Of a DNA stretch of 64,000 bases, positions 1 through 28,026 are shown piece after piece (within the stretch, counting starts at the first letter, position 1; each line of letters opens with the position of its first letter). Location of the stretch: positions 1 through 64,000 of the IMG/VR virus record IMGVR_UViG_3300020577_013934, one strand, 5' to 3'. This DNA comes from a virus (lineage: Duplodnaviria > Caudoviricetes). The notes beneath the pieces were generated by a model. The model did no database searches, was not told where the DNA came from, and was given only the letters and a program-made list of their open reading frames with translations. Both the position numbers and the translations under genes were made by a program.

Positions 1-812
1 CGCGCGTCGCCGACGGTCTGCGCCACCGCGCGCATCGCCGGGTCCTCGACGCCGCGCATCGCGGCCTGTCGGTTGTATTGCTCAGCGCTGAGTGCGGGCA
101 GCATGCGTTGTGCGCGCTGATCAAGCGTACCCTTGCGAGGCATCATTGTGCGCGCCATGAGTTCTTGCGTGTCTTGTGCATTAAGACCTCCAGGTTTGAG
201 CGCAACTTCACGCCCTCCCCGGAGGTACGGTTCAACTTGCGTTTCGTAGTTTGCGCCTGCACGGGCATGCAGTTGCCGATGCAAGTCTTTCCGATCATCC
301 TCGACGTAATCAAGCAAACGCTCCCGCTGAGGAGAGAGTTTCCCTGCTGCTTGTCGGGCTTTGAGTTTGTTCTGTACGTCCCGCAAACGCTTGTCGTGAG
401 CCATGAACCCAGGCAGTAGCTGATCCACAGGATTGGCCCGTTGCGCAGGATTAGGCTCCGCCCGAGCTGGACGAACGGGGGTTACGCCTCCAATCCGTTT
501 ACCAGGAAGTGTTGCTCCGGCAGGAGGCGTCGCGGGCATTCCTGCCAACGAAGACGGAGGGGCACCCCAACCACCGCCTGCCTGCGTGCCACCGTGTCCA
601 CCTACGGACGGATGTGCGATTGTTCGGGCAAACGCCTCGGGCGCGTGGCTTACGGCGGGGGCAGCCTTCAGCCGTCCTGCCATCGTCTGCGCTGCGCTCG
701 GTGCAACGTAGGAGACCGCGCGGGCCTCCTGCGCGAGAGCTGGTGCGGCGCCGCGCAGTTTGCTGGCGAGTGAGGAGAAGAAACCCGCGTGCTTGGCCAA
801 GTGTGTCGGCAT
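1..812 (-). CDS. Partial (runs off left edge) K-x-A-motif putative head/internal virion protein
   Basis: Manual translation gives an open frame from ATG 812 (MPTHLAKHAGFFSSLASKLRG...) to position 1 with no stop; missing from the ORF track; has the LAKHAGF motif like the right-hand head proteins. Confidence 0.7.
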   Translation of the reverse strand, partial: MPTHLAKHAGFFSSLASKLRGAAPALAQEARAVSYVAPSAAQTMAGRLKAAPAVSHAPEAFARTIAHPSVGGHGGTQAGGGWGAPPSSLAGMPATPPAGATLPGKRIGGVTPVRPARAEPNPAQRANPVDQLLPGFMAHDKRLRDVQNKLKARQAAGKLSPQRERLLDYVEDDRKDLHRQLHARAGANYETQVEPYLRGGREVALKPGGLNAQDTQELMARTMMPRKGTLDQRAQRMLPALSAEQYNRQAAMRGVEDPAMRAVAQTVGDA

Positions 813-847
813 GGTGCTCAGAGTATACGCCGAGCACCATGCCGACA
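804..847. other. Perfect 16-bp inverted repeat hairpin (12-nt loop) over the start codon of the 1-812 gene
   Basis: TGTCGGCATGGTGCTC 804-819 / GAGCACCATGCCGACA 832-847. Confidence 0.8.
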
Positions 848-860
848 GAGTCGGGCAGGT

Positions 861-1310
861 TTACAGCGTAGGCGTTTCTGTCGGCACGTCGGGACCCGCG
901 TCCCACGGCTTGCCGTTCAACCACAGCCCAACAAAGACGGGGACTGTATCGTTCGACGGAGCGTCGACGGGGTTGTTCCAGTGCGGATCAAGATCCGACA
1001 AGGCGGCGCACCCGCACCAAGGTGTGTGGCCGCGACTGAACCACGTCGTCAGGCCCACCGACACAACGGGTTCGATTGCACGTCGCGACGGACCCTCCGC
1101 TTGCCAAGCACTGTTCGGCTTTGCCCGGTGCGCACGCGTCAGGTCGATTACCGCGAAGCCGATCACCGGCCATTCCAGTGTCACCCGCTTGCTTGGGGTG
1201 TTCGGTGTCGGATCGTCGTTGTCCACTACCGCCACGAAACGCGCCATCAAGTTCGGAAATGGCGCGGGCGTCAACGTATGTACCTTCGTTGTCGTAATCG
1301 TGTTCGTCAT
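861..1310 (-). CDS. Hypothetical protein
   Basis: ORF 861-1370; likely start MTNTITTT at 1310. Confidence 0.6.
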   Translation of the reverse strand: MTNTITTTKVHTLTPAPFPNLMARFVAVVDNDDPTPNTPSKRVTLEWPVIGFAVIDLTRAHRAKPNSAWQAEGPSRRAIEPVVSVGLTTWFSRGHTPWCGCAALSDLDPHWNNPVDAPSNDTVPVFVGLWLNGKPWDAGPDVPTETPTL

Positions 1311-1683
1311 TCGACACAGACCTTTCCGGGCTTCCGCCCTACGTGCCGACGGGCTCCCCCAACGGCGCATGAGGGGAAACTACCACAAGTTATTGCACGC
1401 AACAACATGGGTGCGAGTCACTCAAGCGCCGCAGGGCTTTCGCACGTCGAGCGCGCCGTGCACGGTGCGGGCAGCACCCGGACGTTCGGGGTACTCAAGC
1501 GCCGTTAGGCTTTACCAAGGTGCGTCGTGCGCAACCATAAAACAACGTAAAGGTCAAGTGTTTTATATACAATTCTCGAAAGGCGAAGCCCGTAAACGGC
1601 TTGGGAGGCGGAGGAGCATCAAGGGGGCCTGAAAGGCGAGAACGTGCCCGGACGGGGCCTCTGCGTATCCGCAAAAAGTGGTT

Positions 1684-2085
1684 TCAGGGTTGGTTGTCCC
1701 AGTTCACTCCCGGCGGCTCGGGGAGGACCTTGCCGCCCTCCTGCTCGCCGTCGCTGACGGGGGTCGCCCCGAAGCCCTGGGCGGCGCGGGCGCGAGCACG
1801 GGCGTCGGGGTCGGTGGCGAGGCGCGCGGCGTCGATCGGCGCGCTCGCAGGCGCCATTCCCGGCGCCACCGGCGCCTCGTGGGGCAGCAGCCCCTGGACG
1901 CGAAACTCGGCCTCCCACTGGGCACACAGCACCATCAGCGCTTCGGCCGCGAGCTTGTTGGGGCGGCTGGGATCGCCCGTGAGCTTTCCCTGGTGTACGG
2001 CGATCTTCAGCACGCGCTCCAGGCGCTCCAGCTTGGTCATCGGGAGTGAGAGCGAGAAGGGAATTGCACGGTCCTTGGTCAACAT
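1684..2085 (-). CDS. Hypothetical protein, possible small DNA-binding (ribbon-helix-helix-like) N-terminus
   Basis: MLTKDRAIPFSLSLPMTKLERLERVLK pattern (strand then helix); GAGGTG upstream. Confidence 0.55.
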   Translation of the reverse strand: MLTKDRAIPFSLSLPMTKLERLERVLKIAVHQGKLTGDPSRPNKLAAEALMVLCAQWEAEFRVQGLLPHEAPVAPGMAPASAPIDAARLATDPDARARARAAQGFGATPVSDGEQEGGKVLPEPPGVNWDNQP

Positions 2086-2128
2086 CGGGAACACCTCGTT
2101 CCCCAGAGGTAGCACCTCTTCGTCTTGA

Positions 2129-2555
2129 TTACAAGGCGTGAGTAATTGTTTTCGAGTGTGTGAGAATAAGGTCAAGATAGATCTACCTATGCGGGCGAGC
2201 GGGCGGCGCCTCCCGCTCCCGTGTGTGCGGTGTGTAGATGTCTCCTCATGTGCGTGAGTGTGTGTCTACGTCACATAATGACTTACATTACCGTACCGTG
2301 ACGTATATATTATTTATAAGGAAGAAACAAGAGAGAGAGAGAGAGATCAGGCATTATTGCAAGATATAGGCCCGTCTAATTCGTGTGTCGTTCTAGGGGG
2401 TTACAACTGTGCCTGCCTGTTTCTGGCCGAAAAACTACCGGTAGTAGTCTTGTAAGCAAGACGGAGACGCACGCTTCCGTCCCGCTCGCCCGCATAGGTA
2501 GATCTATACTGGCTCTATTCACCACTCTTCGAGAATAATTACTCTTTGCTTGTAA
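2129..2555. repeat. Long inverted repeat flanking an AT-rich core; candidate replication origin
   Basis: Perfect 27-bp IR 2177-2203 / 2481-2507 plus degenerate outer arms sharing TTACAAG-N4-GAGTAATT-N-TT-N-TCGA-N8-GAATA; AT-rich core near 2300-2345; lies between divergent gene blocks. Confidence 0.85.
2331..2346. repeat. (GA)8 microsatellite within the IR core
   Basis: gagagagagagagaga. Confidence 0.9.
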
Positions 2556-2712
2556 AGAGAATCTGAGCCACTGTGCGCCAATACGGCGTCAACGACGCGC
2601 ACTGCGCCAGGGGCCTCGGCTCAGTTGGCACACTCGATGGCGCAGCTGTGCCGACGCCGTGCGCAGCGTTGTGCCGCGCGCGGTGAGCGCTGTGCCAGGG
2701 CTGTGCGCGGGG

Positions 2713-2952
2713 TCAGGGCTTGTGCGGACGCTCGGGCGGTGGTGGCACAAGGGCGGGCAGCGGCTCGCGCCGTCCGGCGCTGTAGCCGTCGAGCACGGCC
2801 TGCCCGACGAACTGCCGGATCTCGACGAGACGAACCGCAAGTTCGCCCTCGTCCTTGATCGACTTGCGTAGCGAAAGTTCGATCGACTGCATCGTCCGTG
2901 CGATGGTCTCGACCGGGCCGCCAATCAACCGCAACTGCTGCGATGCAGACAT
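2713..2952 (-). CDS. Hypothetical small helical protein
   Basis: 79-aa ORF; TAACCT -10 box 6 nt upstream of ATG. Confidence 0.5.
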   Translation of the reverse strand: MSASQQLRLIGGPVETIARTMQSIELSLRKSIKDEGELAVRLVEIRQFVGQAVLDGYSAGRREPLPALVPPPPERPHKP

Positions 2953-2974
2953 GCAGAAAGGTTAGGACAATCCG

Positions 2975-3901
2975 ATGGACGAGGACACCGCCAACGCCGC
3001 GCTCGACGCGGCGAAAACCGCAGCCGAGACGCAGCCGATCACGACGGTGATCGAGGGCGCACCGACCCCCGCCGAGATGCTCCGGCGCGCCCGCGCGGCG
3101 GGCAAGACCGACGCCGAGATCAATGCGTTCGCCGCGTCGCAGCCGATGAAGCCGATCGCGATCAAGGGCACGCGCGTGTTCGTGCAGGACTGCTTCGGGC
3201 GCACCTTCGGCTTCGACAACATCCCCGACAAGGAGCTCGCCGCGCTCGTCGCGAAGGGCGTGCCGTATACGCCGTACAGCAACCGCGACGAGATGCGGAA
3301 CGACGCGCGCGGTGGGCGCGACGCGGGTTCCCACCGGATGCAGCTCGCGCCGCGCGCGACGCTGCGCCAGATGCAGGCCGAGCTCGCCCCGCGCGCCGCG
3401 ATGGTGCGCGCGGCGCTCGCGCCGTCGATGCGCAACGTGCTGGCGACGATCGAGCGGGGGACGAAGGTCTCGCGCAAGGAGTACGAGACGCTGCTCGCCG
3501 AGGTGACCAAGGCGGAGGCCGCGCGCACGCCCGAGGCCGGCACCGTCGAGTTCGGCGACATGCTCGCGGCGCAGTCCTCGCCGCTCAACCCCGTGCGCGC
3601 CGCGAGCGCCGCGCTCGGCCTCGACGACGCCGTCGTCGCGCGCATCGTCGCGTGCGTGGAGGCCGCCAAGCGCGACGCGCCCGTGCCCGACGCGCCGCGC
3701 GACTTCGAGGTCGAGGACGCCGCGAGCGCGATGATCGCGCTGGCGCTGGACACGGCGGGATCGCGCGTCGAGCGGCTGAGCGCCGCGCTCGACAAGCTCG
3801 ACACGTACGCCGCCTTCCGCGCGAGCCGCAAGGGCAAGGCGCTGGAGCTCTTCCTCGCGCGCTACGAGCGCGAGGTCGAAAACGACGGAGCCACCGGGTA
3901 G
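2975..3901 (+). CDS. Hypothetical protein
   Basis: 308-aa ORF with strong GC3 bias; TAG stop. Confidence 0.85.
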   Translation: MDEDTANAALDAAKTAAETQPITTVIEGAPTPAEMLRRARAAGKTDAEINAFAASQPMKPIAIKGTRVFVQDCFGRTFGFDNIPDKELAALVAKGVPYTPYSNRDEMRNDARGGRDAGSHRMQLAPRATLRQMQAELAPRAAMVRAALAPSMRNVLATIERGTKVSRKEYETLLAEVTKAEAARTPEAGTVEFGDMLAAQSSPLNPVRAASAALGLDDAVVARIVACVEAAKRDAPVPDAPRDFEVEDAASAMIALALDTAGSRVERLSAALDKLDTYAAFRASRKGKALELFLARYEREVENDGATG

Positions 3902-3961
3902 AAGACCGTGGCGTCCCCTCTGCGGCTTCTCGCAGGCAGCGCTAACAAGGAGCACACGCAC

Positions 3962-4465
3962 ATGAACAACGAACAGACCCACACCGCGTCCGACACCCGC
4001 ACGACCGCGTCGCGCACCGAGCGCGCCACCCGCCCCACGCACGCCGACCCGGGCGGCCTCTTCGCCCGCGCGAAGGACGACCCCAAGTTCGTGGTCCGCT
4101 CGCTCGACGCGGGGCCCGAGCGCGTCGTGCTCGTGCTCGCGCGGGCGCTGCACGCCACGCTCGGCAACGAGAGCTACGAGCCCGGCGACGAGTACCGCAA
4201 GTCGTACCCGGCGATGGTCGTGCGCGAGCGCCCCGCCGCCGACGTCGGCAAGCCCGACAACGAGTCGGAGTGGACCGTGCTCGGCATCTACCGTCACGTC
4301 CAGGTGCTCGACGGCGGCACGTTCGAGTTCGTGCCTCCGGGCGCGCGCCTCAAGCGCCTGAACGGCGACGAGGCGTCGCTCGTGATGCGCACGACGGGCG
4401 CGCTGCGCACGTTCGAGCACGCCGACGACCAGAAGGTGAAGGAGGGGGACTACATCCCCTGCTGA
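3962..4465 (+). CDS. Hypothetical protein
   Basis: AAGGAG SD before ATG 3962; GC3 bias. Confidence 0.85.
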   Translation: MNNEQTHTASDTRTTASRTERATRPTHADPGGLFARAKDDPKFVVRSLDAGPERVVLVLARALHATLGNESYEPGDEYRKSYPAMVVRERPAADVGKPDNESEWTVLGIYRHVQVLDGGTFEFVPPGARLKRLNGDEASLVMRTTGALRTFEHADDQKVKEGDYIPC

Positions 4466-4552
4466 GCGTCCGCGCGGCCTGATCCCGGCTGAAGGGAGCG
4501 CGCCACGGGGCGCGTTTCTTTCGCCCTCAACGACGTAAAGAAGGAGTGCCTC

Positions 4553-4921
4553 GTGAGCGATGTGAAGACTGTGCACGACAAGGACCACCCGGTGCCCGAG
4601 CCGGTGATCCAGCTGCACGACGAGCCGGTGGTGGTGTGGGGCCCGAAGACGACCATCAACCACCTCGCCGACGCCATGGACAAGGTGAAGGCGTGGCACC
4701 AAGCCAAGGCCGAGGGCGCCAGCGACGCCGCGCTCGCCGCGATCCTCGCGGCCCCGACGCCGCCGCGTGCGGTGCTAAGCCCCACGGCGCTTGAGATCCC
4801 GACGAGGGCCCGCACGCCGACGACGATTCCCGCGCCGCCGGGCGAGGACGTGCCGCTCGCGACCAAGGCGCCGAGCGTGACGGTGAAGCTGCCGAGGCGG
4901 CAGCTCAAGCTGAAGATCTGA
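4553..4921 (+). CDS. Hypothetical protein
   Basis: AAGGAG SD, GTG start. Confidence 0.8.
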   Translation: MSDVKTVHDKDHPVPEPVIQLHDEPVVVWGPKTTINHLADAMDKVKAWHQAKAEGASDAALAAILAAPTPPRAVLSPTALEIPTRARTPTTIPAPPGEDVPLATKAPSVTVKLPRRQLKLKI

Positions 4922-5220
4922 TGAAGCGCTTCATCACCGAGCTCGGCTTCGACGAGATCGCGGCGGCGTTCGTGACGCGCCCGCTGCGCGTGCCGGCGGT
5001 CGTGCTCCGCAGCGCCAACGACGACGCGCCCGCCGTGGCCGTCGTGCCCGGCTTCGGCAAGGTCGGCACGCTCGACGAGGGGCCGACGCCGCAGTTCGTG
5101 AAGACGAAGTTCGAGCTCAAGCCGTACACCGTAAACTTGGACAAGTTACTCTCGTCGGGTAATAATCCCGGCGATGTCCAAGACCCTGATCCTGGGCGTG
5201 ACGGGGCACCGTCCCGATAA
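4921..5220 (+). CDS. Hypothetical protein
   Basis: TGATG-coupled start; 3' end overlaps the next promoter and gene. Confidence 0.5.
   Translation: MKRFITELGFDEIAAAFVTRPLRVPAVVLRSANDDAPAVAVVPGFGKVGTLDEGPTPQFVKTKFELKPYTVNLDKLLSSGNNPGDVQDPDPGRDGAPSR
5134..5166 (+). promoter_or_regulatory. Phage promoter/operator: palindrome AACTTG-GA-CAAGTT over a TTGGAC -35, 17-nt spacer, TAATAAT -10
   Basis: Near-identical to the element at 26920-26951; 7 nt before ATG 5174. Confidence 0.65.
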
Positions 5221-8118: not shown

Positions 8119-8429
8119 ACGACGTAAAGAAGAAGCCCAAGAAGCGCCACGCGTGGACGCAGCGCCCCGGCACGCACCACCTTCGATGGTGTCCGCGCTG
8201 CGGCGTCTACGAGGACACCAAGACGCTGCGTCGCGAGTACTTGCGCAGCGTCTCGCTCGTCAACCGGACGATCTATCGCCCGATGGGACAGCCAGGGCGC
8301 TTCTACACGAAACAGCCGGCGTGCACGCCTCCGCCCGAGGGCACGCTCATCTCGCCCCCGCCACCGTGGGGTGGTGACGCGCTGACCAACGCCGTGAAGG
8401 CGCTGGCCGGCGAGAAAGCGACGACATGA
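8115..8429 (+). CDS. Hypothetical protein with HxW...CxxCG zinc-finger-like motif
   Basis: GTGA coupling; RHAWTQRPGTHHLRWCPRCG. Confidence 0.65.
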   Translation: MNDVKKKPKKRHAWTQRPGTHHLRWCPRCGVYEDTKTLRREYLRSVSLVNRTIYRPMGQPGRFYTKQPACTPPPEGTLISPPPPWGGDALTNAVKALAGEKATT

Positions 8430-9199
8430 CGCTTCGTGTTTTGTTCCTCGACATCGACGGCGTGCTCAACAGCAGCGCCTACCTCAAGGCCAACCCAGAT
8501 TCGTTCGACCGCAGCGGCCCGAACGCCTACCTCTCGATGTTCGACCCGGTGGCGTGTGCGCGCCTCCAGGTCGTGCTCACGGTCACCGGTGCGAAGATCG
8601 TCATCAGCTCGTCGTGGCGTCACGTGCACACGATCGACGAGATCCGTGGCTACCTCGCCGCCAAGGGCATCACCGCCGAGGTCATCGACTTCACGCCCAT
8701 CGGCTACAACCCTGACCTGCCCGGCGACGACTCGTTCGGCACGTCGATGACGTGTCGCGGCCACGAGATCGCCGCGTGGGTCGACGCCCACCCCGAGCTG
8801 GAGGCATACGCCGTCGTTGATGACAACAGCGATATGGACGGCGTGCGCGAGCGCTTCGTCCAGACGACGTGGGAGCGCGGCCTGAAGATCGAGCACGCCC
8901 GTCGCCTCGTGCGCGTCTTGATGCGCCCGCGCCAGTTTCATACCGGCCAGTTGGTTCACGTCTACGGACGCCTTCCGTGGTCGGACCCGCGCGAGGGTGA
9001 CGACAGCTACGAGCTGGGGCGGATCGTCGATCCAGCGGTGCGTTTTCCGGCAGCGTCCGAACATCCGACGGGCGCCACCGTCAAGATCATCAACGCGATC
9101 GTCGATCGCCCCGTCTTCGCCCCGTACGAGAAGCTCAGCGAGCCTTTTCCCTCGTGGCAGCAGCTCGCCTACGGTTTCGAGAAAGTATCACCTCCGTGA
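8426..9199 (+). CDS. HAD-superfamily (HAD_SAK_2 / Swiss Army Knife RNA-repair-like) protein
   Basis: VLFLDIDGVLN, IVISSSWR, EIAAW, AVVDD motifs. Confidence 0.85.
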   Translation: MTLRVLFLDIDGVLNSSAYLKANPDSFDRSGPNAYLSMFDPVACARLQVVLTVTGAKIVISSSWRHVHTIDEIRGYLAAKGITAEVIDFTPIGYNPDLPGDDSFGTSMTCRGHEIAAWVDAHPELEAYAVVDDNSDMDGVRERFVQTTWERGLKIEHARRLVRVLMRPRQFHTGQLVHVYGRLPWSDPREGDDSYELGRIVDPAVRFPAASEHPTGATVKIINAIVDRPVFAPYEKLSEPFPSWQQLAYGFEKVSPP

Positions 9200-9992: not shown

Positions 9993-10076
9993 GTTCTCCG
10001 CGCGGATGAACAACGCGACACAAGCCTTTCGATATGCTCGCAAGATGCGTTTCACGTCGTAGGTTGAGAGGGTGTC

Positions 10077-10108
10077 CCCGGGTCGTGAGACCCGGGGGCT
10101 TTTCTTTT
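10077..10108 (+). terminator. Rho-independent terminator
   Basis: CCCCGGGTC-GTGA-GACCCGGGG followed by CTTTTCTTTT. Confidence 0.85.
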
Positions 10109-10125
10109 GGCCGCCGTTTACCGTG

Positions 10126-10791
10126 TTACGTGATCTTGTGTGCAGCCATCAACGAAGATTGGTACATGCGGATCTGGTAGTCTCGCAGGACGCGATTGTA
10201 TGCGGCGACTTCGTGGTAGGTCGCATTGCTGTAGTTGTTCAGGTACGATCGCCCGAAGCGCATGACGCCGGTCGTGACTTGCGTGGGCCCTGACGCAACA
10301 CTGGTCCACGGCCCGCCGTTCACGGAGCTGCGTAGTGTCACGCCGTCGTGTGTGACGGTTACAAGTATCTTTTGGCCGAATGTGACGGAGTATGTATTGA
10401 CTTGGGCTGCGCCGTCCCAGTTGTATACGCCGATAGTGCCGCCGAGCCGTGCAAACACGCCGAAGTACCCTAACGAATCACTGAAGACACCGTCATTGGT
10501 GTACATCGTGCCGTTGTTGTTGGTGGCTGAGACTATGTTGACGACGAAAAACAGTGTCTTTGCGCTGGCACCGAAGAATGTCGCGAGCGACGACGCCGAC
10601 GTCGGAATGATACTCTGCGTTGTGCCGTTGGTGGTCGGAATACCACTCGCCACGCTGGGCGGCGTGGGCCCGTCGCCGAAGCTGATGCCGCCCGCGCGCG
10701 TCGTCCAGACGCCGCTTGTGTAGCCGTTGGGTCGCAGCCACAAGGTGCAGTTGGGGAAGTTGGTTGCGCGGCGTCGACGTTGGAAGATCAT
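10126..10791 (-). CDS. LamG/concanavalin-like domain virion accessory protein
   Basis: TLWLRP, beta-rich, ILVTVTHDG...SVNG and EVAAYNRVL motifs. Confidence 0.7.
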   Translation of the reverse strand: MIFQRRRRATNFPNCTLWLRPNGYTSGVWTTRAGGISFGDGPTPPSVASGIPTTNGTTQSIIPTSASSLATFFGASAKTLFFVVNIVSATNNNGTMYTNDGVFSDSLGYFGVFARLGGTIGVYNWDGAAQVNTYSVTFGQKILVTVTHDGVTLRSSVNGGPWTSVASGPTQVTTGVMRFGRSYLNNYSNATYHEVAAYNRVLRDYQIRMYQSSLMAAHKIT

Positions 10792-11864
10792 GCGATGAAC
10801 CACGAGGAGCCGTTGGAGTACAGGTCGATCGAGCCGTAACCTACCTCGATCGCGACGTTCGCGCTGCCCTCGATCGTGCCCGACGGCGGCTGGATCAGGA
10901 TCTGCACGGTCGGCGACGCTGACCCGGTCTCGTCTTTGATCTTGATCGGGAACATGCCGTTGACGGCCGATGCAGCGGGCAGCGTTAGCGTGCGCGTCGC
11001 GGTCAGCCCCGTGACGCGAACGAGATTCGCCGTCACGGCGATCGTCGCGTCGGTGTCGTTGACACTCTGCTGGCGAAACACGAGGCCGGTGTTGATGTTT
11101 GCGGGCTTGCCCGTGTTCGCGTCACCGATCTGAAGGGTGTCGGTATTATCTAATCCGATGAGGATTCTTAGATTCGTACCGGCACTGTCCTGTGAGAGAA
11201 CCGGGACGAAATTTTTGAGCAGGATGCTCCCCCCGATGCCGGCTGATAGATTGGTACCGAGATCGAGCGCGCCGTCAGTCTGTACGGTGATGCGTGTGAC
11301 GCTGTTGATCTGGAGCCGGTATTGGTATGACGTTGGAACGTTGAATGTGAGGTTGTCGACGCCAGCGATCGTGCCCGGCGTGCTGACGATCAAGCCGTCC
11401 AAGAACGTCTTCGTCCCGCTGAACGACTGTGCTCCTGACGTAACGACACCTGTTTGGCCGCTGCCAGCTGGATTGACTGCGACTGTGACGTTGCCGGAAA
11501 GTGCAACGGGGGTGTTTACGCCGTTCACAGTCACCGGTGAAGTTCCGGTGACTGTTCGACTTGGGGGTACTGCGTTGGTGTCGACGTAGTTTTTCGTCGC
11601 CGCGTCGCTGTTGGCAGAGGGTGGACCCAAGTTGATGACACGGAATCCGCCGAGGCTTTGATCTCCTGTAAAAGGCACGGTGCCGTCGGCCAGGATTACA
11701 CCGCTCGGTGCGGCGGCGTCGACGTAGCCCTTTGTCGCTGCATCGCTGATTGCAGCAGGTGTCGCCAGTCCCGTAAGTCGCTGATTGCCGACGTTCCAAA
11801 TACTCGTCAGCGGTGTTGAGCCGTCGATGCGGACGAAACCTTGAGGGGATCGACTGACAAACAT
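10788..11864 (-). CDS. Tail fibre-like protein
   Basis: Two DAATKxYVD fibre repeats, T/G-rich, TRTLTLPAAS...IKIKDE C-terminus; TACACT 5 nt upstream of ATG. Confidence 0.75.
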   Translation of the reverse strand: MFVSRSPQGFVRIDGSTPLTSIWNVGNQRLTGLATPAAISDAATKGYVDAAAPSGVILADGTVPFTGDQSLGGFRVINLGPPSANSDAATKNYVDTNAVPPSRTVTGTSPVTVNGVNTPVALSGNVTVAVNPAGSGQTGVVTSGAQSFSGTKTFLDGLIVSTPGTIAGVDNLTFNVPTSYQYRLQINSVTRITVQTDGALDLGTNLSAGIGGSILLKNFVPVLSQDSAGTNLRILIGLDNTDTLQIGDANTGKPANINTGLVFRQQSVNDTDATIAVTANLVRVTGLTATRTLTLPAASAVNGMFPIKIKDETGSASPTVQILIQPPSGTIEGSANVAIEVGYGSIDLYSNGSSWFIA

Positions 11865-11956
11865 ACTCAAGTGTAAGCAGCTCCAATCTTTTGCGACCTA
11901 TGTTCTGTATGTCGCTTGGACCTTCGTCTGTTGCGTATATTTCACAAGGAGTCTTC

Positions 11957-12511
11957 ATGCGCCTCATCGAGACGATCAAAAGCCGTACAGCACTTGCCAT
12001 TGGCGCAGCGATGCGCAACGCGCTCAATGAACTTCTTCCTATTGGTCGTGCTTCGCTGAACATCAAGCACCAGCGTGTACGCCGTAAAGGTGAACTCTAC
12101 GTCCTGGAAGATGTGGGGCCTGAAGAGAAGGTATGGAATCTCATCACCAACGCAGGGCGCGACTACCTGCATCTTCAGGGTTACGGGACGGCAGGGCTCG
12201 GAACCAACGGGCTGAACTACATCGCGCTGTCGAATGACACTGTTACGGAAACGTCAGCATCAACCACGCTGTCCAACGAGATCACGCTCAATGGTCTTGG
12301 GCGTGCGCAAGGGACATATGCCCATACGGCAGGAACCAACACAACGACACTCTCGCGTGTGTTTACAGCGTCTGGTACTCAAAGCGCACAGAAAGCAGCT
12401 CTTTTCACGGCTTCTTCGTCAGGCACGATGAACCACGTCCTCGGATTTACGCAGCGTTCTTTGATCTCGGGGGACACGTTGTCTCTCACATTCACGATTA
12501 CATTGGGTTGA
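11957..12511 (+). CDS. Putative tail/baseplate-associated structural protein
   Basis: AAGGAG SD; NLITNAG, YIALS, LFTASSSGTM and GDTLSLTFTI motifs typical of phage tail-fibre-associated proteins. Confidence 0.7.
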   Translation: MRLIETIKSRTALAIGAAMRNALNELLPIGRASLNIKHQRVRRKGELYVLEDVGPEEKVWNLITNAGRDYLHLQGYGTAGLGTNGLNYIALSNDTVTETSASTTLSNEITLNGLGRAQGTYAHTAGTNTTTLSRVFTASGTQSAQKAALFTASSSGTMNHVLGFTQRSLISGDTLSLTFTITLG

Positions 12512-12513
12512 TC

Positions 12514-12903
12514 ATGGTTGTGTCCGAGATCTACGGTTTATGGCACAAAGCAAACATCGAAAACGCCGCAGGCTTGGTTGTCCTTACACCCAGCGGTGTT
12601 GTGGTTTGGTGGGTAGATGGTGTGCTCGAACAGATTGAGGGGGGGACTGTCGTCGAGGCGATTCGCATCGCTTATGGCGAGCAGTACGTTGCGCGTGAGA
12701 CACAACTGCTCCAGGTTGTGCGATACATGATCAAAGAAACGTCCTCGGATGAACCCAAAGGGTTCGCGTATTGTTTTCCTGGTGCGCAAGTCGTCATCGC
12801 TTGGAACGACAAGACGCTTGAGGTGTGGGACAAAGATGCAAAACTGGATGCGGTTCTCGCCCAGTATGCTTTTCAATTTACTTTCCAGTGTTTGGACCAA
12901 TGA
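12514..12903 (+). CDS. Hypothetical protein
   Basis: 129-aa ORF tightly packed in the operon. Confidence 0.7.
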   Translation: MVVSEIYGLWHKANIENAAGLVVLTPSGVVVWWVDGVLEQIEGGTVVEAIRIAYGEQYVARETQLLQVVRYMIKETSSDEPKGFAYCFPGAQVVIAWNDKTLEVWDKDAKLDAVLAQYAFQFTFQCLDQ

Positions 12904-14030
12904 ACACCATCACCACGCAGAAGTCGCGTTCCAATCCTTCCGCTATCACCGCTACACAGCTTGCTGCGATTGACGCTGTGCGGGGAATCGATCGGCTGTT
13001 ACCTATTATGCACGGTCGGCGCGTGGTTGGCGCGACTTTTGCGCCTCCTTGGTGGCTTTGTGCCACTAAGCCGGAGTTGTTTCCCGATGATGTGTTGTTT
13101 AAACCCCTCGATATGAGTTTGGAGCAATATCAGAAGTGGGCGGGGTTTCTGTCGTACGACGCGATTATCAACGCGATCAGCACGAATGGGGCTTTTTTTC
13201 CTGCGAAGTTCTCGAAGGGCGCGACAACAGCACCAGTGGCGAACAACTGGTACGATCTTTGGCCTGTCGGAGGCTCTCCGGCTGCGGGTGCTTATGCAGG
13301 CGCCGCTTTCACCGCCGTGCAATTCTCGGACGCCACATCTGGCGCCCTTTATCACGCAGGAAACCAGTCACCAAGTACCAAACACTTGATCTCGATGGAT
13401 GCGCGCTCGACGGGTGGTACTCCAACGTTGATTCTGTATGATCGCGTTCTGACATACGAGGCGTGCACGTTTAACGCAAGCGTCAATCAAGCGATGACGA
13501 ATACGCTTGCCGCTCAGCGCTACATCAGCTCGGGTCAACCGGGGTTGAAGATCATCACGACGTGTCAGACTGTATTCGGCGCAACAGCCTCGAACTTCAC
13601 ACAGCTTCAGTACACTGATCAAGCTGGAAACACGCTCCAATCTATGCCCGTGGCCGCGTTTAACGCGATCATTGTCAGCGCAGCGGCGCCAACGACCACG
13701 CTTGGGGCCCGTGTTGTTTCACCCAGCAACACAGCTGCAACTTTGACGCAAGGTCCGTTCATGCCCCTGGCAGTTGGCGACGGAGGTGTTCGCTTGATTG
13801 CCAACTATACTACGTCGGCGGCAAACACTGGGACCATGGCGTTTGTTCTGGGGGCCCCTCTGGCGACGATTCCAATTCAGGTGGCGGGCGTGACCACCCT
13901 CATTGACATGGTTCAGCAACTTATTGGGTTGTACCGAGTCTTCGATGGCGCTTGTTTGTCTTTCCTTGCCTTTTTTCCGGCCGCTACTGCATCTACTTTC
14001 GACGGGTCCGTTAACTTTGCTTGGGGCTAA
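12900..14030 (+). CDS. Putative virion structural protein (beta-rich)
   Basis: ATGA coupling; 376 aa. Confidence 0.8.
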   Translation: MNTITTQKSRSNPSAITATQLAAIDAVRGIDRLLPIMHGRRVVGATFAPPWWLCATKPELFPDDVLFKPLDMSLEQYQKWAGFLSYDAIINAISTNGAFFPAKFSKGATTAPVANNWYDLWPVGGSPAAGAYAGAAFTAVQFSDATSGALYHAGNQSPSTKHLISMDARSTGGTPTLILYDRVLTYEACTFNASVNQAMTNTLAAQRYISSGQPGLKIITTCQTVFGATASNFTQLQYTDQAGNTLQSMPVAAFNAIIVSAAAPTTTLGARVVSPSNTAATLTQGPFMPLAVGDGGVRLIANYTTSAANTGTMAFVLGAPLATIPIQVAGVTTLIDMVQQLIGLYRVFDGACLSFLAFFPAATASTFDGSVNFAWG

Positions 14031-14033
14031 TCT

Positions 14034-15338
14034 GTGCCGCGTATTCGAGGCTATCCTGGCGGAACGCTGATCCTCTCGTTTGATAGAGGCTTCGTCGGGT
14101 GGTCTGAACGACGCGGAGATATGTTCGTAGGCAACCAAGGTGTGCCTGCGTCGAGCACGTACAAGTATCGGTTGCCGCTAAAGTCGCCGAACTCAACGAA
14201 TTACAACGAAGCCGTTAATGAAACGCTGACGCTGTCAGGCGCTTTGTTGACGAAGCTTGACGCCCTCCAGGGCCTTAATGCGTCCGTCGCTTTCAGCGAA
14301 GGTTTGGTTGTTCTTTATTCAGCCGTTCGGGGACTTTCAGAGACATTGACATTGTCAGAAGCCTTGAGCGCTGAGCTTGTGTCTGTCCTTGCTCTAGCTG
14401 AAACGGTTTCCGGTACTGAGGCACTTAGTGCCGCGTTGGGTAGTGTTGTGTCACTAACGGAAACATTGACGACAAGCGAACTCCTCGCTGCTGTTGGCAG
14501 TGTGATTGTGGGCCTTGCGGAAACAATTTCCGCCGTTGAATTGTTGTCGGTAGTACGTGGGGTTGTAAGTTTTTTGGCAGACACTGTAACACTCGACGAA
14601 GTGACGAGTGTTAGCTACAGCGCTATTCCACAGATTTTGGAGACCATTGGTGCAACAGAATCGCTTGTTGGGCAATTCTCCACAACGGGTACTATTGTTG
14701 AAACTGTTAGCGTAACGGAAGCGTTTTCCGCTGGCATCTTGTTTTTGACTTCGGTCTTTGAGCTTGTAACTCTTACAGAAGACCTTGCTACTACTTTTGC
14801 AGGGTTTCAGACCTTCTTTGAACCTGTGCTTCTCGCGGAGACTTTGCAGACGTCACGAAGTGTGTCGGTGGTATTGAATACCGCCGTGCTTCTGCTGGAG
14901 ACGCTTGCAACTCAGCTATCGGTGGGCGTTCAGATGTCTGCTTTGGTTCCGTGGGCTACAACGCTACTGCCTTCGTTCTCTACTTTCGTTCCACTGGTTG
15001 AAACGTTGCCGTCTTTTGACAGTATTGAAGCGCGTTTAGCGGCTGCATCGCAGTTGTCGACGCAGGTACTGGTTGTTGATGTTTTGAGCTCTACGTTTGA
15101 CGGGTTTCAACTTCTTGAAGAAACGTTTCAGTATCAAGAGCAACTGGGTACGCGTTACACCATTACGCTTCCGTTGGTTGTAGGTGTTGGCTGGTACGCC
15201 GACGTGGATGGATTTAGCTTGCGTTCGTCCACGACGCGAAAGCTGGATTCTGGCGAAGCTCCATTGCGAACAAGTGGAGGGCATTTAATCCTTCCTGTTC
15301 TCAAAAAGCCTATTCGCAAGTTGAAGGATGGTGCGTGA
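14034..15338 (+). CDS. Repeat-rich putative fibre protein (about 18-aa ET(L/I)xxxE repeats)
   Basis: About 20 imperfect repeats such as ETLTLSEALSAELVSVLALA. Confidence 0.75.
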   Translation: MPRIRGYPGGTLILSFDRGFVGWSERRGDMFVGNQGVPASSTYKYRLPLKSPNSTNYNEAVNETLTLSGALLTKLDALQGLNASVAFSEGLVVLYSAVRGLSETLTLSEALSAELVSVLALAETVSGTEALSAALGSVVSLTETLTTSELLAAVGSVIVGLAETISAVELLSVVRGVVSFLADTVTLDEVTSVSYSAIPQILETIGATESLVGQFSTTGTIVETVSVTEAFSAGILFLTSVFELVTLTEDLATTFAGFQTFFEPVLLAETLQTSRSVSVVLNTAVLLLETLATQLSVGVQMSALVPWATTLLPSFSTFVPLVETLPSFDSIEARLAAASQLSTQVLVVDVLSSTFDGFQLLEETFQYQEQLGTRYTITLPLVVGVGWYADVDGFSLRSSTTRKLDSGEAPLRTSGGHLILPVLKKPIRKLKDGA

Positions 15339-15892
15339 TGGCTACGGGTGTGCGGATCTACTGGGAAGCCGATACAGACCCTGATGTGCAGAATTACGAG
15401 ATTCGTCGAGGGCCGCAAGAGGGGCAACCTATTGTCCTGTTGCAGGTCGTTCCTCATGCGATTCCGGGCCTTAATTGGTCTGCGACGAAAAATAGATTCT
15501 TTTACGACGACCCACAAGGGGGTCCCGTGAACGTCTATCAGGTTACGGCTGTTTCTTCTGGTGGGGTGGCGATCGGCCAGACAGATGTCTTTACGCCGTT
15601 TGGTCCGACGGCTGCGACACCAATGAAGATTGCCGTGGATCACAACTATGGAGGGCCAGACGCTCTCCGGTTTGTGACCGAGAGTGGTGTTGGTATTCCA
15701 GACGCAGATGTGCGTGTGTACACCAAACCCGATTATGACGCGGGACGTTTTGCAGCGCCTATGTATGTTGTTCAGACAGATGACCAAGGACGCTGGCGCC
15801 GACCTGCGTTCTTGGATGCAGGGTTGGATTACGTCCTTTTGATGGAGAAACGTAGCGCTTACGTGAGTCAACCTACGCAGATCACTGTTTGA
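15338..15892 (+). CDS. Putative structural protein with Fn3/Ig-like and carboxypeptidase-regulatory-like domains
   Basis: IYWEAD..DVQNYEIRRG, YQVTAVS, GIPDADVRVY, TDDQGRW motifs. Confidence 0.7.
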   Translation: MATGVRIYWEADTDPDVQNYEIRRGPQEGQPIVLLQVVPHAIPGLNWSATKNRFFYDDPQGGPVNVYQVTAVSSGGVAIGQTDVFTPFGPTAATPMKIAVDHNYGGPDALRFVTESGVGIPDADVRVYTKPDYDAGRFAAPMYVVQTDDQGRWRRPAFLDAGLDYVLLMEKRSAYVSQPTQITV

Positions 15893-15942
15893 GGTTCAGG
15901 CACAATAGCGCTGAGCCGGCTGTTAATGCCGCGCGGGGAACT

Positions 15943-16017
15943 TGGCGGGACGGGAGGGAGTCGAACCCACGACCATCGGGTTAACGGCCCGATGCTCTGC
16001 CACTGAGCTACCGCCCC
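15943..16017 (-). tRNA. tRNA-Asn(GTT), CCA encoded
   Basis: Cloverleaf GGGGCGG/CCGTCCC; anticodon loop CC-GTT-AA; TTCGACT T-loop. Confidence 0.9.
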
Positions 16018-21447: not shown

Positions 21448-21725
21448 CCCGCGCCAAGCAGATCGCCGCCGAGGTGCGCGCGTGGCTCGCCACGTACCAC
21501 TGCCTCGGCGGCGAGCAGTTTCACCTCGGCCCCGAGGGCAGCGGCGTCGTCCTCGTCATGGACTTCGCCGCCTGCCCGATCGTCGGGTACCTCGACCAGT
21601 ACGGGCACGCCGAGCTGGTCAACGACCTCTTTCGACGCCTCGACAAGATGGGCCTGTACGTGAAGCGCGGGCCCGTCTTCTCGACGCTCCACGTCTTCGA
21701 CAAGTCCGACCTTCCACCCGCGTGA
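21429..21725 (+). CDS. Hypothetical protein
   Basis: GTG 21429; GC3 bias. Confidence 0.65.
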   Translation: MDGQALARAKQIAAEVRAWLATYHCLGGEQFHLGPEGSGVVLVMDFAACPIVGYLDQYGHAELVNDLFRRLDKMGLYVKRGPVFSTLHVFDKSDLPPA

Positions 21726-21774
21726 CACGCTTACTTACGCCGTAACGCCACACCTAACACGGAGCACACAACCC

Positions 21775-22251
21775 ATGTCCAACAGGATCGTCTACATCAT
21801 GCGCGGCCTCCCCGGCTCGGGGAAGTCGACCATGGCCAAGAACATGGCCGGCGCGACCGGCCGCGTCGTCTCGGCCGACGACTTCTTCATGGTCGACGGC
21901 GAGTACCGCTTCGACGTCGCCAAGCTCGGCGAGGCGCACGGCCAGTGCATGCGCCGCGCGATCGAGCACGTGCAGCGCGACGTCGAGGCCCCGCTCGTCG
22001 TCGACAACACCAACATCTCGAACGTCGAGATCGCGCCGTACGTGCTGCTCGCGCAGGCGTACGGCTGGTTCCCGCAGATCCTGACGCTCCACTCCGAGAG
22101 CGCCTACGTCGTGAGCGTCTGCGCCAAGCGCAACTCTCACGGCGTCCCCATCGAGCGCGTCACGGCGATGTTCGAGCAGCTCCTGCGGGAGCTGCCCGCG
22201 ACGCCGCCGTGGTGGAGCCAGCAGGTCCTGACGCCGGTGATCGGGTCGTGA
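21775..22251 (+). CDS. AAA_33 / N4BP2-like P-loop (polynucleotide) kinase
   Basis: MRGLPGSGKST, SADDFF, EAHGQC, VVDNTN. Confidence 0.88.
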   Translation: MSNRIVYIMRGLPGSGKSTMAKNMAGATGRVVSADDFFMVDGEYRFDVAKLGEAHGQCMRRAIEHVQRDVEAPLVVDNTNISNVEIAPYVLLAQAYGWFPQILTLHSESAYVVSVCAKRNSHGVPIERVTAMFEQLLRELPATPPWWSQQVLTPVIGS

Positions 22252-23425: not shown

Positions 23426-23773
23426 GGGGGCGAAACGGCTTCGACGTGGAGAACTAGGTCGAGACTGCGTCACAGGGCTGGGCCACCTCACGGCTTACGT
23501 AGAAACGCGAACGACAACGCGATGCTCGCAGCGGCCTGATAAGCCCCTGCGACGTCCTCGGGGCAGGCCGGCTCGGGTCGGCTTCGGGGGCGCAATCAAT
23601 CCGAGCTAGCGAGCGCGGGCGGTGCGGCCGGCGCGGGCGAGACACGCAGCACCAGACCAGACGAGACCCCGCCCGTGGGGATGCTCGGCGGGAGAAGAGA
23701 CACGCGGGACAGGTGACGTAGACGTCCGGCGGAACGCTTCGCGGACCCGGGTTCGACTCCCGGCGCCTCCACC
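23426..23773 (+). ncRNA. ssrA: tmRNA (one-piece); tag (A)ANDNAMLAAA
   Basis: 5' GGGGGCGAAACGGCTTCGAC; 3' GGGTTCGACTCCCGGCGCCTCCACC; G3-U alanine pair; tag ORF 23507-23539 followed by TGA TAA. Confidence 0.95.
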
Positions 23774-23794
23774 CTTCGTTCGCAGCGACAGGAC

Positions 23795-25891: not shown

Positions 25892-25892
25892 G

Positions 25893-25963
25893 CGCCCCGG
25901 ATGGGAGTCGAACCCATCTCACCGCGTTTAGAGCGCGGTGCCTGACCGCTAGGCTACCGGGAC
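25893..25963 (-). tRNA. Amber-suppressor tRNA (anticodon CUA), CCA not encoded
   Basis: GTCCCGG TA GCCT AGCGGTC AGGC A CCGCG CT-CTA-AA CGCGG TGAG ATGGG TTCGACT CCCAT CCGGGGC G. Confidence 0.9.
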
Positions 25964-27989: not shown

Positions 27990-28026
27990 GTTGAAAAGCG
28001 TAATCGACGGCAGCTACCTTTTCGAC

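What the first reader, a model, noticed from the sequence alone, without database searches (positions are those of the whole stretch)
2129..2750. Candidate bidirectional replication origin: ~80-bp inverted arms around an AT-rich core, plus TGTGC[CG] iterons
Seen: a perfect 27-bp IR (2177-2203 / 2481-2507). Its outer arms have diverged but keep exactly spaced blocks (TTACAAG, GAGTAATT, TCGA, GAATA), the pattern of protein-binding sites under selection. The core has TATATATATTTTATAA and (GA)8. About ten TGTGCC/TGTGCG or GGCACA words occur at 2408-2750. It sits at the switch from leftward to rightward genes. Inference: origin with two helicase-loading arms, or a packaging/terminal site.
Basis: partly seen in the sequence, partly recalled or inferred. 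Interest (0 to 1): 0.7.

Follow-up and report, generated by a model that had tools for sequence, protein, structure and literature searches.

The report
Conserved dyad control region, possible origin
A 627-base non-coding stretch of a large, poorly known phage keeps the same mirror-image layout in seven related phage lineages, so it is a working DNA control site, possibly the replication origin, but no test available here could show which.

Summary
The sequence features are real. There is a 75-nt gapless inverted repeat (2129-2203 / 2481-2555) whose inner 27 nt are perfect. An (AG)8.5 tract and an AT-rich box lie between the arms. Eight TGTGCS words fall in 178 bp, against 0.19 expected. The element lies between two leftward genes; the gene-direction switch is about 400 bp further right, at 2952/2975.

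It is not an artefact, a mobile element or a known RNA. Independent assemblies from three studies bridge it collinearly. Seven diverged lineages keep the same module: 133-aa gene, element, 79-aa gene, 308-aa gene.

All lineages keep a GC-rich box on each side, roughly equidistant (126-135 and 125-138 bp) from a central polypurine (GA)n tract. All keep a TATATT box upstream of the tract and a leftward promoter whose -35 is the TTACAAG block. The outer arms change in concert between lineages, but L004/L006 have lost them.

Best reading (about 0.35): a protein-binding assembly site with back-to-back promoters that serves as a transcription-activated origin. A purely transcriptional control region is nearly as likely (0.30). 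An invertible promoter, an RNA gene and a packaging or partition site remain open. GC skew is uninformative, and only contigs, not raw reads, were available. The scan holds no look-alike on other DNA.

The parts
1684..2085 (-). 133-aa gene. The true start is MLTKDRAIPF at 2085. Its N-terminus reads like a strand-helix-helix (ribbon-helix-helix-like) DNA-binding motif.
   Evidence: 51-97% identity in seven lineages. It is present in every locus that has the element and absent where the element is absent. No Pfam, NCBIfam or PDB hit. The RHH reading is inference from the sequence pattern plus a weak MetJ lead.
2106..2134 (-). P_left: TTGTAA (2134-2129), 17-nt spacer, TACCTC (2111-2106). The Shine-Dalgarno GAGGTG follows at 2097-2092.
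   Evidence: Read from the sequence. The same positions in relatives give TTGCAA-17-TACGTT (L004), TTGCAA-17-TATGCT (L006) and TTGTAA-17-TACCTC (L007, L017, L026). This is a consensus resemblance only; no transcript data exist.
2129..2203 (.). Left arm of the inverted repeat, with blocks TTACAAG, GAGTAATT, TCGA, GAATA and then the perfect inner 27 nt
2183..2208 (.). Left inner box CTACCTATGCGGGCGAGCGGGCGGCG, nearly invariant in six of seven lineages; L020 keeps only its core CCTATGCGGGCGAG
2209..2282 (.). G/T-rich segment of alternating purines and pyrimidines. It includes the 8-bp repeat TACGTCAC (2267-2274) / GTGACGTA (2298-2305) that brackets the -35 of P_core.
   Evidence: (GC skew +0.28 to +0.40)
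2283..2311 (+). P_core: TTACAT, 17-nt spacer, TATATT. A sigma-70-like promoter pointing right, unique in the window.
   Evidence: The TATATT box is kept in all seven lineages. The -35 is kept in window, L007, L006, L017 and nearly in L004 and L026, but not in L020. This is the most conserved 30 nt of the gap (0.89).
2304..2346 (+). AT-rich box followed by a polypurine run (2320-2346), the whole containing two pyrimidines after the box (T2318, C2328) and ending in (AG)8.5 at 2330-2346. This is the dyad centre of the repeat.
   Evidence: The tract is 15-19 nt long in all eight loci where both boxes could be placed. It lies 126-135 nt from the left box and 125-138 nt from the right box.
2354..2366 (.). 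Invariant block TTATTGCAAGATA, holding the second TTRCAAG word
2434..2462 (.). Loop-less palindrome ACTACCGGTAGT (2434-2445) and palindrome GTCTTG-TAAG-CAAGAC (2447-2462), which holds the third TTRCAAG word
2481..2555 (.). Right arm of the inverted repeat. The inner box CGCTCGCCCGCATAGGTAG lies at 2483-2501 and the fourth TTRCAAG word at 2549-2555.
2572..2749 (.). Array of TGTGCS / SGCACA words with an imperfect palindrome at 2639-2652 and a period of about 21 bp. It overlaps the last 37 nt of the 79-aa gene.
   Evidence: Relatives carry the perfect palindrome TGGCACAGCTGTGCCA and an 11-bp period. In L020 the array is replaced by unrelated 33-bp repeats.
2713..2952 (-). 79-aa gene, highly conserved, modelled as a helical hairpin
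   Evidence: No fold or family match.
2975..3901 (+). 308-aa gene with a conserved N-terminal domain of about 100 aa and a variable C-terminus
   Evidence: Only 12 representatives were found among 1.84 billion proteins. No fold match.

Best explanation
The 627-bp gap is a single-copy, conserved protein-binding region of a conserved phage gene module (133-aa gene, element, 79-aa gene, 308-aa gene). Its core layout is two GC-rich boxes in mirror orientation, about 130 bp either side of a polypurine (GA)8 tract. A sigma-70-type promoter, P_core, fires rightward into that tract. A second promoter, P_left, lies back-to-back with it and drives the 133-aa gene. A helically phased word array (TGTGCS) lies beyond the right arm. 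I think the most likely role is a transcription-activated replication origin. In this reading, host RNA polymerase starts about 7 nt after TATATT (near 2318) and makes an RNA that reaches a 27-nt run (2320-2346) with a single pyrimidine within two or three bases. That purine RNA would form a stable hybrid with the (TC)n template at the dyad centre, in the low-GC part of the core. This would open the DNA and could prime synthesis. The arms and the array would hold module-encoded DNA-binding proteins that organise or regulate the complex. Shown: the anatomy, its uniqueness, its conservation, its geometry, and the concerted change of the arms. Inferred: that the promoters fire, that an R-loop forms, that replication starts here, and which protein binds which site.
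For: Real and not an artefact: contigs from X1, X2 and X4 bridge the element collinearly. In X11, a relative that differs at 2-10% of positions depending on the segment, three overlapping or abutting contigs show the same order. Single copy: the element occurs once in the 77.6-kb record, and P_core, the word cluster and the (GA)n tract are unique in the window. Conserved: seven lineages whose 308-aa proteins are 50-90% identical keep the gap and its blocks. Non-coding identity is similar to that of the coding flanks. Fixed geometry: the (GA)n tract of 15-19 nt sits within a few bp of the midpoint between the boxes in eight loci. The tract differs by one repeat unit between close relatives (L017 17 nt vs L018 19 nt; L026 16 nt vs L027 18 nt). 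Its overall range nevertheless stays narrow. Low-GC core: 49% GC against 68% for the window. Array: period 21, 11 or 33 bp, multiples of about one helical turn. The array is replaced by different repeats in L020, where the neighbouring 308-aa homologue is also the most divergent. Iterons that change together with their initiator would look like this. DNA-level rather than RNA-level constraint: there are loop-less palindromes. Arm mismatches show no G:U bias, and 39 of 63 are transversion-type. The core has almost no covariation support (-13.9 kcal/mol, covariation term +0.64). There is no Rfam match. From established knowledge: T4 oriF/oriG, the T7 primary origin and ColE1 use a promoter next to an easily opened region, with the transcript acting as primer. 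Purine-rich RNA paired to pyrimidine DNA is unusually stable.
Against: No direct replication evidence exists. GC skew changes sign near 2.9 kb only as it does at every change of gene orientation. The leftward block is only three genes long in relatives, so there is no genome-scale strand switch here. No replication gene was recognised in the window, and there are no DnaA boxes or IHF sites. The -35 of P_core is not kept in L020. The long arms are missing in L004/L006, so they are not essential. The left arm's outer block is explained by P_left. All features also fit a transcription-only control region.
Confidence: 0.35

Rival explanations
1. The region is a transcription-control region only. 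P_left and P_core are a back-to-back promoter pair. The arms, the palindromes and the TGTGCS array are operators for regulators encoded in the module, such as the RHH-like 133-aa protein. A protein bridging the two GC-rich boxes could loop the 277-bp core and shut P_core. The P_core RNA would run antisense through the 79-aa gene toward the 308-aa operon.
For: P_left is conserved in position in all lineages, and TTACAAG is its -35. P_core matches the promoter consensus. The palindromes have no loop, as dimer-binding sites do. An 11-bp array period suits RHH-type cooperative binding. The element and the 133-aa gene are always present or absent together. The array differs where the neighbouring protein differs.
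Against: Six hundred conserved non-coding bases are far more than a promoter pair with operators usually needs in a densely coded phage. The exact central placement and length conservation of the (GA)n tract has no obvious role in repression. No DNA-binding family was detected in any of the three proteins.
Confidence: 0.3
2. The region is an invertible promoter switch. The 25-90-bp inverted repeats would be recombination sites, and flipping the 242-277-bp core would point P_core at either the leftward or the rightward operon.
For: The geometry matches known promoter invertons: inverted repeats flanking a short segment with a promoter inside. The arms change in concert within genomes, as expected if they recombine.
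Against: All seven lineages and all bridging contigs from four runs show the same core orientation. No serine or tyrosine recombinase is present on the 77.6-kb record, though that record is only about 45% complete. L006 has a degenerate right arm. Contigs hide minority forms, so a strongly biased switch is not excluded.
Confidence: 0.07
3. The region is a non-coding RNA gene. One version is an RNA from P_core that starts with the polypurine run. Another is a long stem formed by the two arms within a leftward polycistronic RNA, for example an RNase III processing site between the 79- and 133-aa cistrons.
For: P_core has no start codon behind it, and the 43-codon frame across it is broken by a 2-nt indel in L004. 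The 60 nt after the promoter are conserved. The 481-nt stretch 2100-2580, which spans the element, folds far better than shuffled sequence (z -9.2 and -6.7). That is expected for any inverted repeat.
Against: There is no Rfam match even at E 5. The consensus structure of the core is weak and lacks covariation support. Arm mismatches are mostly transversion-type with no consistent G:U strand bias. Palindromes without loops do not make RNA hairpins. The left arm lies upstream of P_core.
Confidence: 0.1
4. The region is another single-copy cis site, either a packaging (pac/cos) recognition site or a partition (centromere-like) site bound by a small RHH protein.
For: It is unique, conserved and built of many blocks, with phased repeats next to a small RHH-like gene. 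Some short contigs of relatives end inside or near the element.
Against: No terminase gene or partition ATPase was recognised nearby. Long contigs run straight through the element. Contig ends fall at different places. No relative was found in 185,579 bacterial and archaeal genomes, so there is no sign of a plasmid or prophage lifestyle.
Confidence: 0.08
5. The region is an assembly misjoin or a mobile miniature inverted-repeat element inserted by chance.
For: It is bounded by an inverted repeat and has lower GC than its surroundings.
Against: Independent assemblies from several studies give the same sequence. It sits at the same position in seven lineages. There is only one copy, no target-site duplication and no copy elsewhere in the viral collection.
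Confidence: 0.01

Closest known systems
Transcription-primed origins (phage T4 oriF/oriG, T7 primary origin, plasmid ColE1)
   Same: A promoter sits next to an easily opened, AT-rich stretch. The proposed RNA would stay hybridised and open or prime the DNA.
   Different: Those origins have no flanking mirror-image arms, no central dinucleotide polypurine tract and no adjacent word array. Nothing about priming was tested here. The comparison rests on general knowledge.
Iteron-type origins (lambda ori, P1 oriR, iteron plasmids)
   Same: A cluster of short repeated words with helical phasing lies beside an AT-rich region. A poorly conserved neighbouring protein varies together with the repeats.
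   Different: The words here are short (6-8 nt), are partly arranged as palindromes, and repeat only 2.6 times at 76% identity by Tandem Repeats Finder. There are no DnaA or IHF sites. No initiator family was recognised.
Dyad-symmetric viral origins (herpes simplex oriL/oriS, SV40 core origin)
   Same: Mirror-image protein-binding sites surround an AT-rich centre, close to divergently transcribed genes.
   Different: Those origins span 45-144 bp and are true palindromes. Here the arms are 277 bp apart, the spacer is not palindromic, and the long arms are dispensable in one lineage.
Promoter invertons (E. coli fimS, Salmonella hin, Bacteroides invertible promoters)
   Same: Inverted repeats of 25-90 bp flank a 242-277-bp segment that carries a promoter.
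   Different: Only one orientation was seen in seven lineages. No invertase is present on the record. Conserved blocks extend well beyond a recombinase core site.
RHH-protein operator or centromere arrays (for example parC/ParR, parH/ParG, omega sites)
   Same: A small strand-helix-helix-like gene has an upstream region full of phased short repeats around its promoter.
   Different: The RHH fold is not confirmed. No partner ATPase was found. The region is several times larger than such sites.

Membership tests
Iteron-containing replication origin | Three or more direct repeats of about 17-22 bp, helically phased | tested here: inconclusive
   Tandem Repeats Finder gives period 21, 2.6 copies, 76% match at 2640-2696. 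Relatives give period 11 (5.6 copies, L018) and period 33 (2 copies, L020). Many words are inverted rather than direct.
Iteron-containing replication origin | AT-rich unwinding element next to the repeats | tested here: met
   The core is 49% GC against 68% for the window. TATATATTATTTATAA lies at 2304-2319.
Iteron-containing replication origin | Supports initiator-dependent replication; the initiator binds the repeats | not testable with these tools
   This needs an origin-plasmid assay and footprinting. The neighbouring proteins match no initiator family.
Iteron-containing replication origin | Host-factor sites (DnaA box, IHF); common but not universal | tested here: not met
   No DnaA box within 1 mismatch and no IHF consensus in 2000-2800.
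Promoter inverton | Inverted repeats flanking a short segment that contains a promoter | tested here: met
   The promoter is a consensus match only.
Promoter inverton | Both orientations present in the population | tested here: inconclusive
   Only one orientation appears in seven lineages and in the bridging contigs of four runs. Contigs drop minority forms, and no raw reads were available.
Promoter inverton | Site-specific recombinase encoded nearby | tested here: not met
   PF00239 and PF00589 are absent from the 77.6-kb record. The record is estimated to be 45% complete.
Miniature inverted-repeat transposable element or insertion sequence | Several copies, target-site duplication, presence/absence between relatives | tested here: not met
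   There is one copy and no duplication at the arm ends. The element is present at the same site in all seven lineages.
Structured RNA (Rfam family, or a stem kept by selection on pairing) | Match to a curated model, or compensatory changes with G:U tolerance on one strand | tested here: not met
   No Rfam match at E up to 5. The core covariation term is +0.64. Among arm mismatches, 15 are G:U on the plus strand, 9 on the minus strand and 39 are other types.
Genome terminus or packaging site | Read starts pile up at fixed positions; a terminase gene is adjacent | tested here: inconclusive
   Only contigs could be laid, and they cannot show molecule ends. Long contigs pass through the element. 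No terminase was recognised nearby.

The most novel reading that the evidence does not exclude
This is a previously undescribed kind of phage replication origin. A host-type promoter writes a polypurine, primer-like RNA exactly at the dyad centre of two GC-rich boxes. These are flanked by long arms that evolve in concert and by a lineage-specific word array. The whole belongs to a three-gene module with no known protein families.
Probability: 0.2. Interest if true: 0.75.

Novelty: new variant of a known kind. Interest (0 to 1): 0.5.

Why it matters
To my knowledge, origins and other single-copy cis-acting sites of large, divergent phages are almost unknown. This element gives a precisely delimited and easily cloned candidate (2086-2760), with clear predictions and seven natural variants for comparison. 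If it is an origin, it would show a transcription-primed start organised around a conserved polypurine tract. It would also link three orphan protein families to DNA replication. If it is only a control region, it is still an unusually large and ordered one. It would then be a good system for studying how mirror-image binding sites evolve in concert.

Tried and rejected
- **Exact-pattern scans of the viral collection.** Arm and core words gave nothing or only chance hits. L008-L011 share no other similarity with the element.
- **Other searches for relatives.** The 308-aa protein found no relatives in viral contigs. A nucleotide search against 50,697 phage records gave only a 50-nt chance match. 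The 79-aa family has no relative in 185,579 bacterial and archaeal genomes.
- **Family searches on neighbouring genes.** Pfam, PHROGs and NCBIfam gave no informative hits for the neighbours or for about 55 other open reading frames.
- **Structure models.** The 308-aa N-domain (pLDDT 75) and the 79-aa protein (pLDDT 80) matched no solved fold convincingly. Atlas look-ups gave only weak leads. A PDB sequence search with the 133-aa profile gave nothing relevant.
- **RNA-library run X2.** Its contigs cover genes and the gap at a uniform depth of about 9. That looks like DNA in the library, so I draw no conclusion about expression.
- **Gaps in contig cover and contig breaks.** Breaks near the (GA)n tract in X11, L013 and L019 fall at different places, so I do not read them as molecule ends.
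- **GC skew.** It follows gene orientation throughout the window, so it neither supports nor refutes an origin.
- **Other promoter candidates.** A mirror-image promoter in the right arm and promoters at the two inner TTRCAAG words were looked for by eye and not found.
- **Literature searches.** They found no description of a comparable element.

Full report
**Context.** The window is the first 64 kb of a 77.6-kb virus record (IMG/VR; linear; estimated 45% complete). GC content is 68%. The record carries a tmRNA, tRNA-Asn and a tRNA with a CUA anticodon. Almost none of its proteins match Pfam or PHROGs. A 903-aa protein is distantly similar to structural proteins of 180-187-kb phages. This is therefore a large phage of a poorly known group. 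The 2-kb stretch around the finding (1500-3500) is held by wastewater, river and freshwater runs from seven studies. I laid four runs from four studies.

**The observation.**
- The repeat finder reports arms 2129-2203 and 2481-2555: 75 nt, 76% complementary, 277 nt apart.
- The arms align without gaps. The inner 27 nt are perfect, and the blocks TTACAAG, GAGTAATT, TCGA and GAATA are in exact register.
- (AG)8.5 lies at 2330-2346. It is the only dinucleotide repeat of 6 or more units in the window.
- TGTGCS words number 69 in 64 kb. Eight fall within 2572-2749, where 0.19 are expected (P about 4e-11). No other 178-bp span has more than three.
- Two details needed correction. The AT-rich string reads TATATATTATTTATAA (2304-2319).
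- The element is not at the gene-direction switch. The leftward 133-aa gene really starts at 2085 (MLTKDRAIPF, by alignment with relatives). The next gene, 2713-2952, is also leftward. The switch to rightward genes is at 2952/2975.

**It is real and it is conserved.**
- Contigs from X1 (234-5000), the RNA-library run X2 (2013-3571) and X4 (1997-5000) bridge the element in the same arrangement. In X11, a relative that differs at 2-10% of positions depending on the segment, three contigs show the same order.
- I fetched relatives through homologues of the 308-aa and 79-aa proteins. They come from Logan and JGI assemblies.
- Seven lineages keep the order 133-aa gene, 590-740-bp gap, 79-aa gene, 308-aa homologue. 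The lineages are window/L005, L017-19, L004, L006, L007, L020 and L026/27/L013.
- More distant homologues of the 79-aa protein (L021-L025) lack the 133-aa gene, the gap, the boxes and the (GA)n tract together.
- Non-coding identity across four lineages is 0.4-0.9 per 30-nt bin, like the coding flanks. The highest bin is 0.89, over 2284-2313.

**What is kept.** Alignments A2 and A9 and L026 show the following conserved parts.
- The left box CTACCTATGCGGGCGAGCGGGCGGCG and its mirror on the right.
- GTGTGCGG.
- A block that reads as a sigma-70-type promoter pointing right, TTACAT-17-TATATT. It is unique in the window. The TATATT box is present in all lineages. The -35 is kept in most lineages but not in L020.
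- A purine run ending in (GA)7-9.
- TTATTGCAAGA.
- The loop-less palindrome ACTACCGGTAG.
- The word array beyond the right arm.

The (GA)n tract is 15-19 nt long. It lies 126-135 nt from the left box and 125-138 nt from the right box in all eight loci where both boxes could be placed. The dyad axis therefore passes through it. Close relatives differ by one repeat unit (L017 17 nt against L018 19 nt; L026 16 nt against L027 18 nt). The overall range nevertheless stays narrow.

**The arms.**
- Arm length and quality differ by lineage: 75 nt at 76% (window), 90 nt at 71% (L017), 80 nt at 88% (L007), 64 nt at 89% (L020) and about 81 nt at about 97% (L026). L004 has only 25 nt, and the right arm of L006 is degenerate.
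- Outside the invariant box, the two arms of one genome are more alike than the same arm is between lineages. Within-genome identity is 0.77-0.98, against 0.43-0.73 between lineages. The arms therefore change in concert.
- The mismatches show no consistent G:U bias: 15 on the plus strand, 9 on the minus strand and 39 of other types.
- The core has a weak consensus fold with no covariation support. Rfam finds nothing.
- I conclude that the symmetry is kept at the DNA level. Gene conversion between the arms, or selection for two like binding platforms, or both, would do this. Selection for an RNA stem does not fit.
- L004 and L006 do without the long arms, so these are not essential to the locus.

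**Promoters.** On the minus strand, TTGTAA (2134-2129), a 17-nt spacer and TACCTC (2111-2106) lie just before the Shine-Dalgarno GAGGTG (2097-2092) and the start at 2085. The same positions give TTGCAA-17-TACGTT in L004, TTGCAA-17-TATGCT in L006 and TTGTAA-17-TACCTC in L007, L017 and L026. The right arm has no matching -10 beyond it. Four of the eight TTRCAAG words in the window lie in the element. P_left and P_core stand back to back, about 150 bp apart. These are consensus matches. No data on transcripts exist, because the RNA-library contigs have the flat depth expected of DNA.

**The array.** The TGTGCS words repeat with a period of 21 bp in the window, 11 bp in L018 and 33 bp in L020. In L006 and L013 they form the perfect palindrome TGGCACAGCTGTGCCA. 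In L020 the words are replaced by unrelated repeats. The adjacent 308-aa homologue is most divergent there. This fits a lineage-specific DNA-binding protein encoded next door. No DNA-binding family could be shown for the 133-, 79- or 308-aa proteins (models; fold searches). The N-terminus of the 133-aa protein reads like a ribbon-helix-helix motif. That is my inference, with only a weak MetJ lead from the atlas.

**Interpretation.** The element is a single-copy, multi-block protein-binding region. Its size (627 bp in a densely coded phage) points to something more than a promoter pair. So do the low-GC core, the promoter firing into a conserved polypurine tract at the exact centre, and the adjacent phased array. 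A transcription-activated origin would use all the parts, and I give it 0.35. There is no direct evidence for it:
- GC skew follows gene orientation.
- The leftward block is only three genes long in relatives.
- No replication genes, DnaA boxes or IHF sites were found.

A transcription-only control region with operators and looping is almost as likely (0.30). An invertible promoter fits the geometry. Against it stand one orientation in seven lineages and the absence of a recombinase on the record. I give it 0.07, and raw reads would settle it. An RNA gene (0.10) and a packaging or partition site (0.08) remain possible. An artefact or a mobile element is excluded.

**Other points.** Two strain comparisons change divergence level across the element. 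X4 is identical to the window right of 1997 and about 9% different left of 1912. X11 differs by 6.5% on the left and 1.9% on the right. The element therefore lies at a junction between exchangeable modules. The scan's own index holds no look-alike of this stretch in other genomes.

Noticed in passing
window 81-660: A hypervariable stretch. In X11 one contig replaces 82-625 with 556 other letters. X1 and X4 contigs diverge right after position 81. The main X1 contig carries a dense cluster of differences at 264-660.
   Followed up: no
window 1912-2480: Divergence changes abruptly across the element in two strains. X4 is identical to the window right of 1997 and about 9% diverged left of 1912. 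X11 is 6.5% diverged on the left and 1.9% on the right. This suggests a recombination junction between modules.
   Followed up: partly
window 2975-3901: The 308-aa protein belongs to a very rare family, with 12 representatives among 1.84 billion proteins. It has a conserved N-terminal domain of about 100 aa (invariant V68, V70, D72, R76, G95, P97, N103, R104, R108) followed by a basic tail and a variable C-terminus. The model (pLDDT 75) matches no solved fold.
   Followed up: partly
window 2713-2952: The 79-aa protein is far better conserved (66-92% among the closer homologues, 34-47% in three distant ones) than its neighbours. It also occurs, at 43-50% identity, in a different gene context without the element (L021-L025).
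   Followed up: partly
window 23426-23774 and 25892-25963: A complete tmRNA (tag ANDNAMLAAA) and a tRNA with a CUA anticodon, which ARAGORN labels Pyl, lie within 2.5 kb of each other.
   Followed up: no
window 10000-16000: A low-GC island (51-60% against about 70%) ends at a tRNA-Asn gene at 15943-16017.
   Followed up: no
window 8378-9199, 21664-22251, 27165-28013: These are among the few recognisable genes: a HAD domain of RNA-repair type (PF18143), an AAA_33 kinase-like domain and a patatin-like phospholipase. A thymidine kinase is also present somewhere among the 37 frames scanned together.
   Followed up: no
L017 vs L018; L026 vs L027: Closely related assemblies differ by one GA unit in the central tract (17 vs 19 nt; 16 vs 18 nt). 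This is microsatellite slippage within a narrow allowed range.
   Followed up: partly
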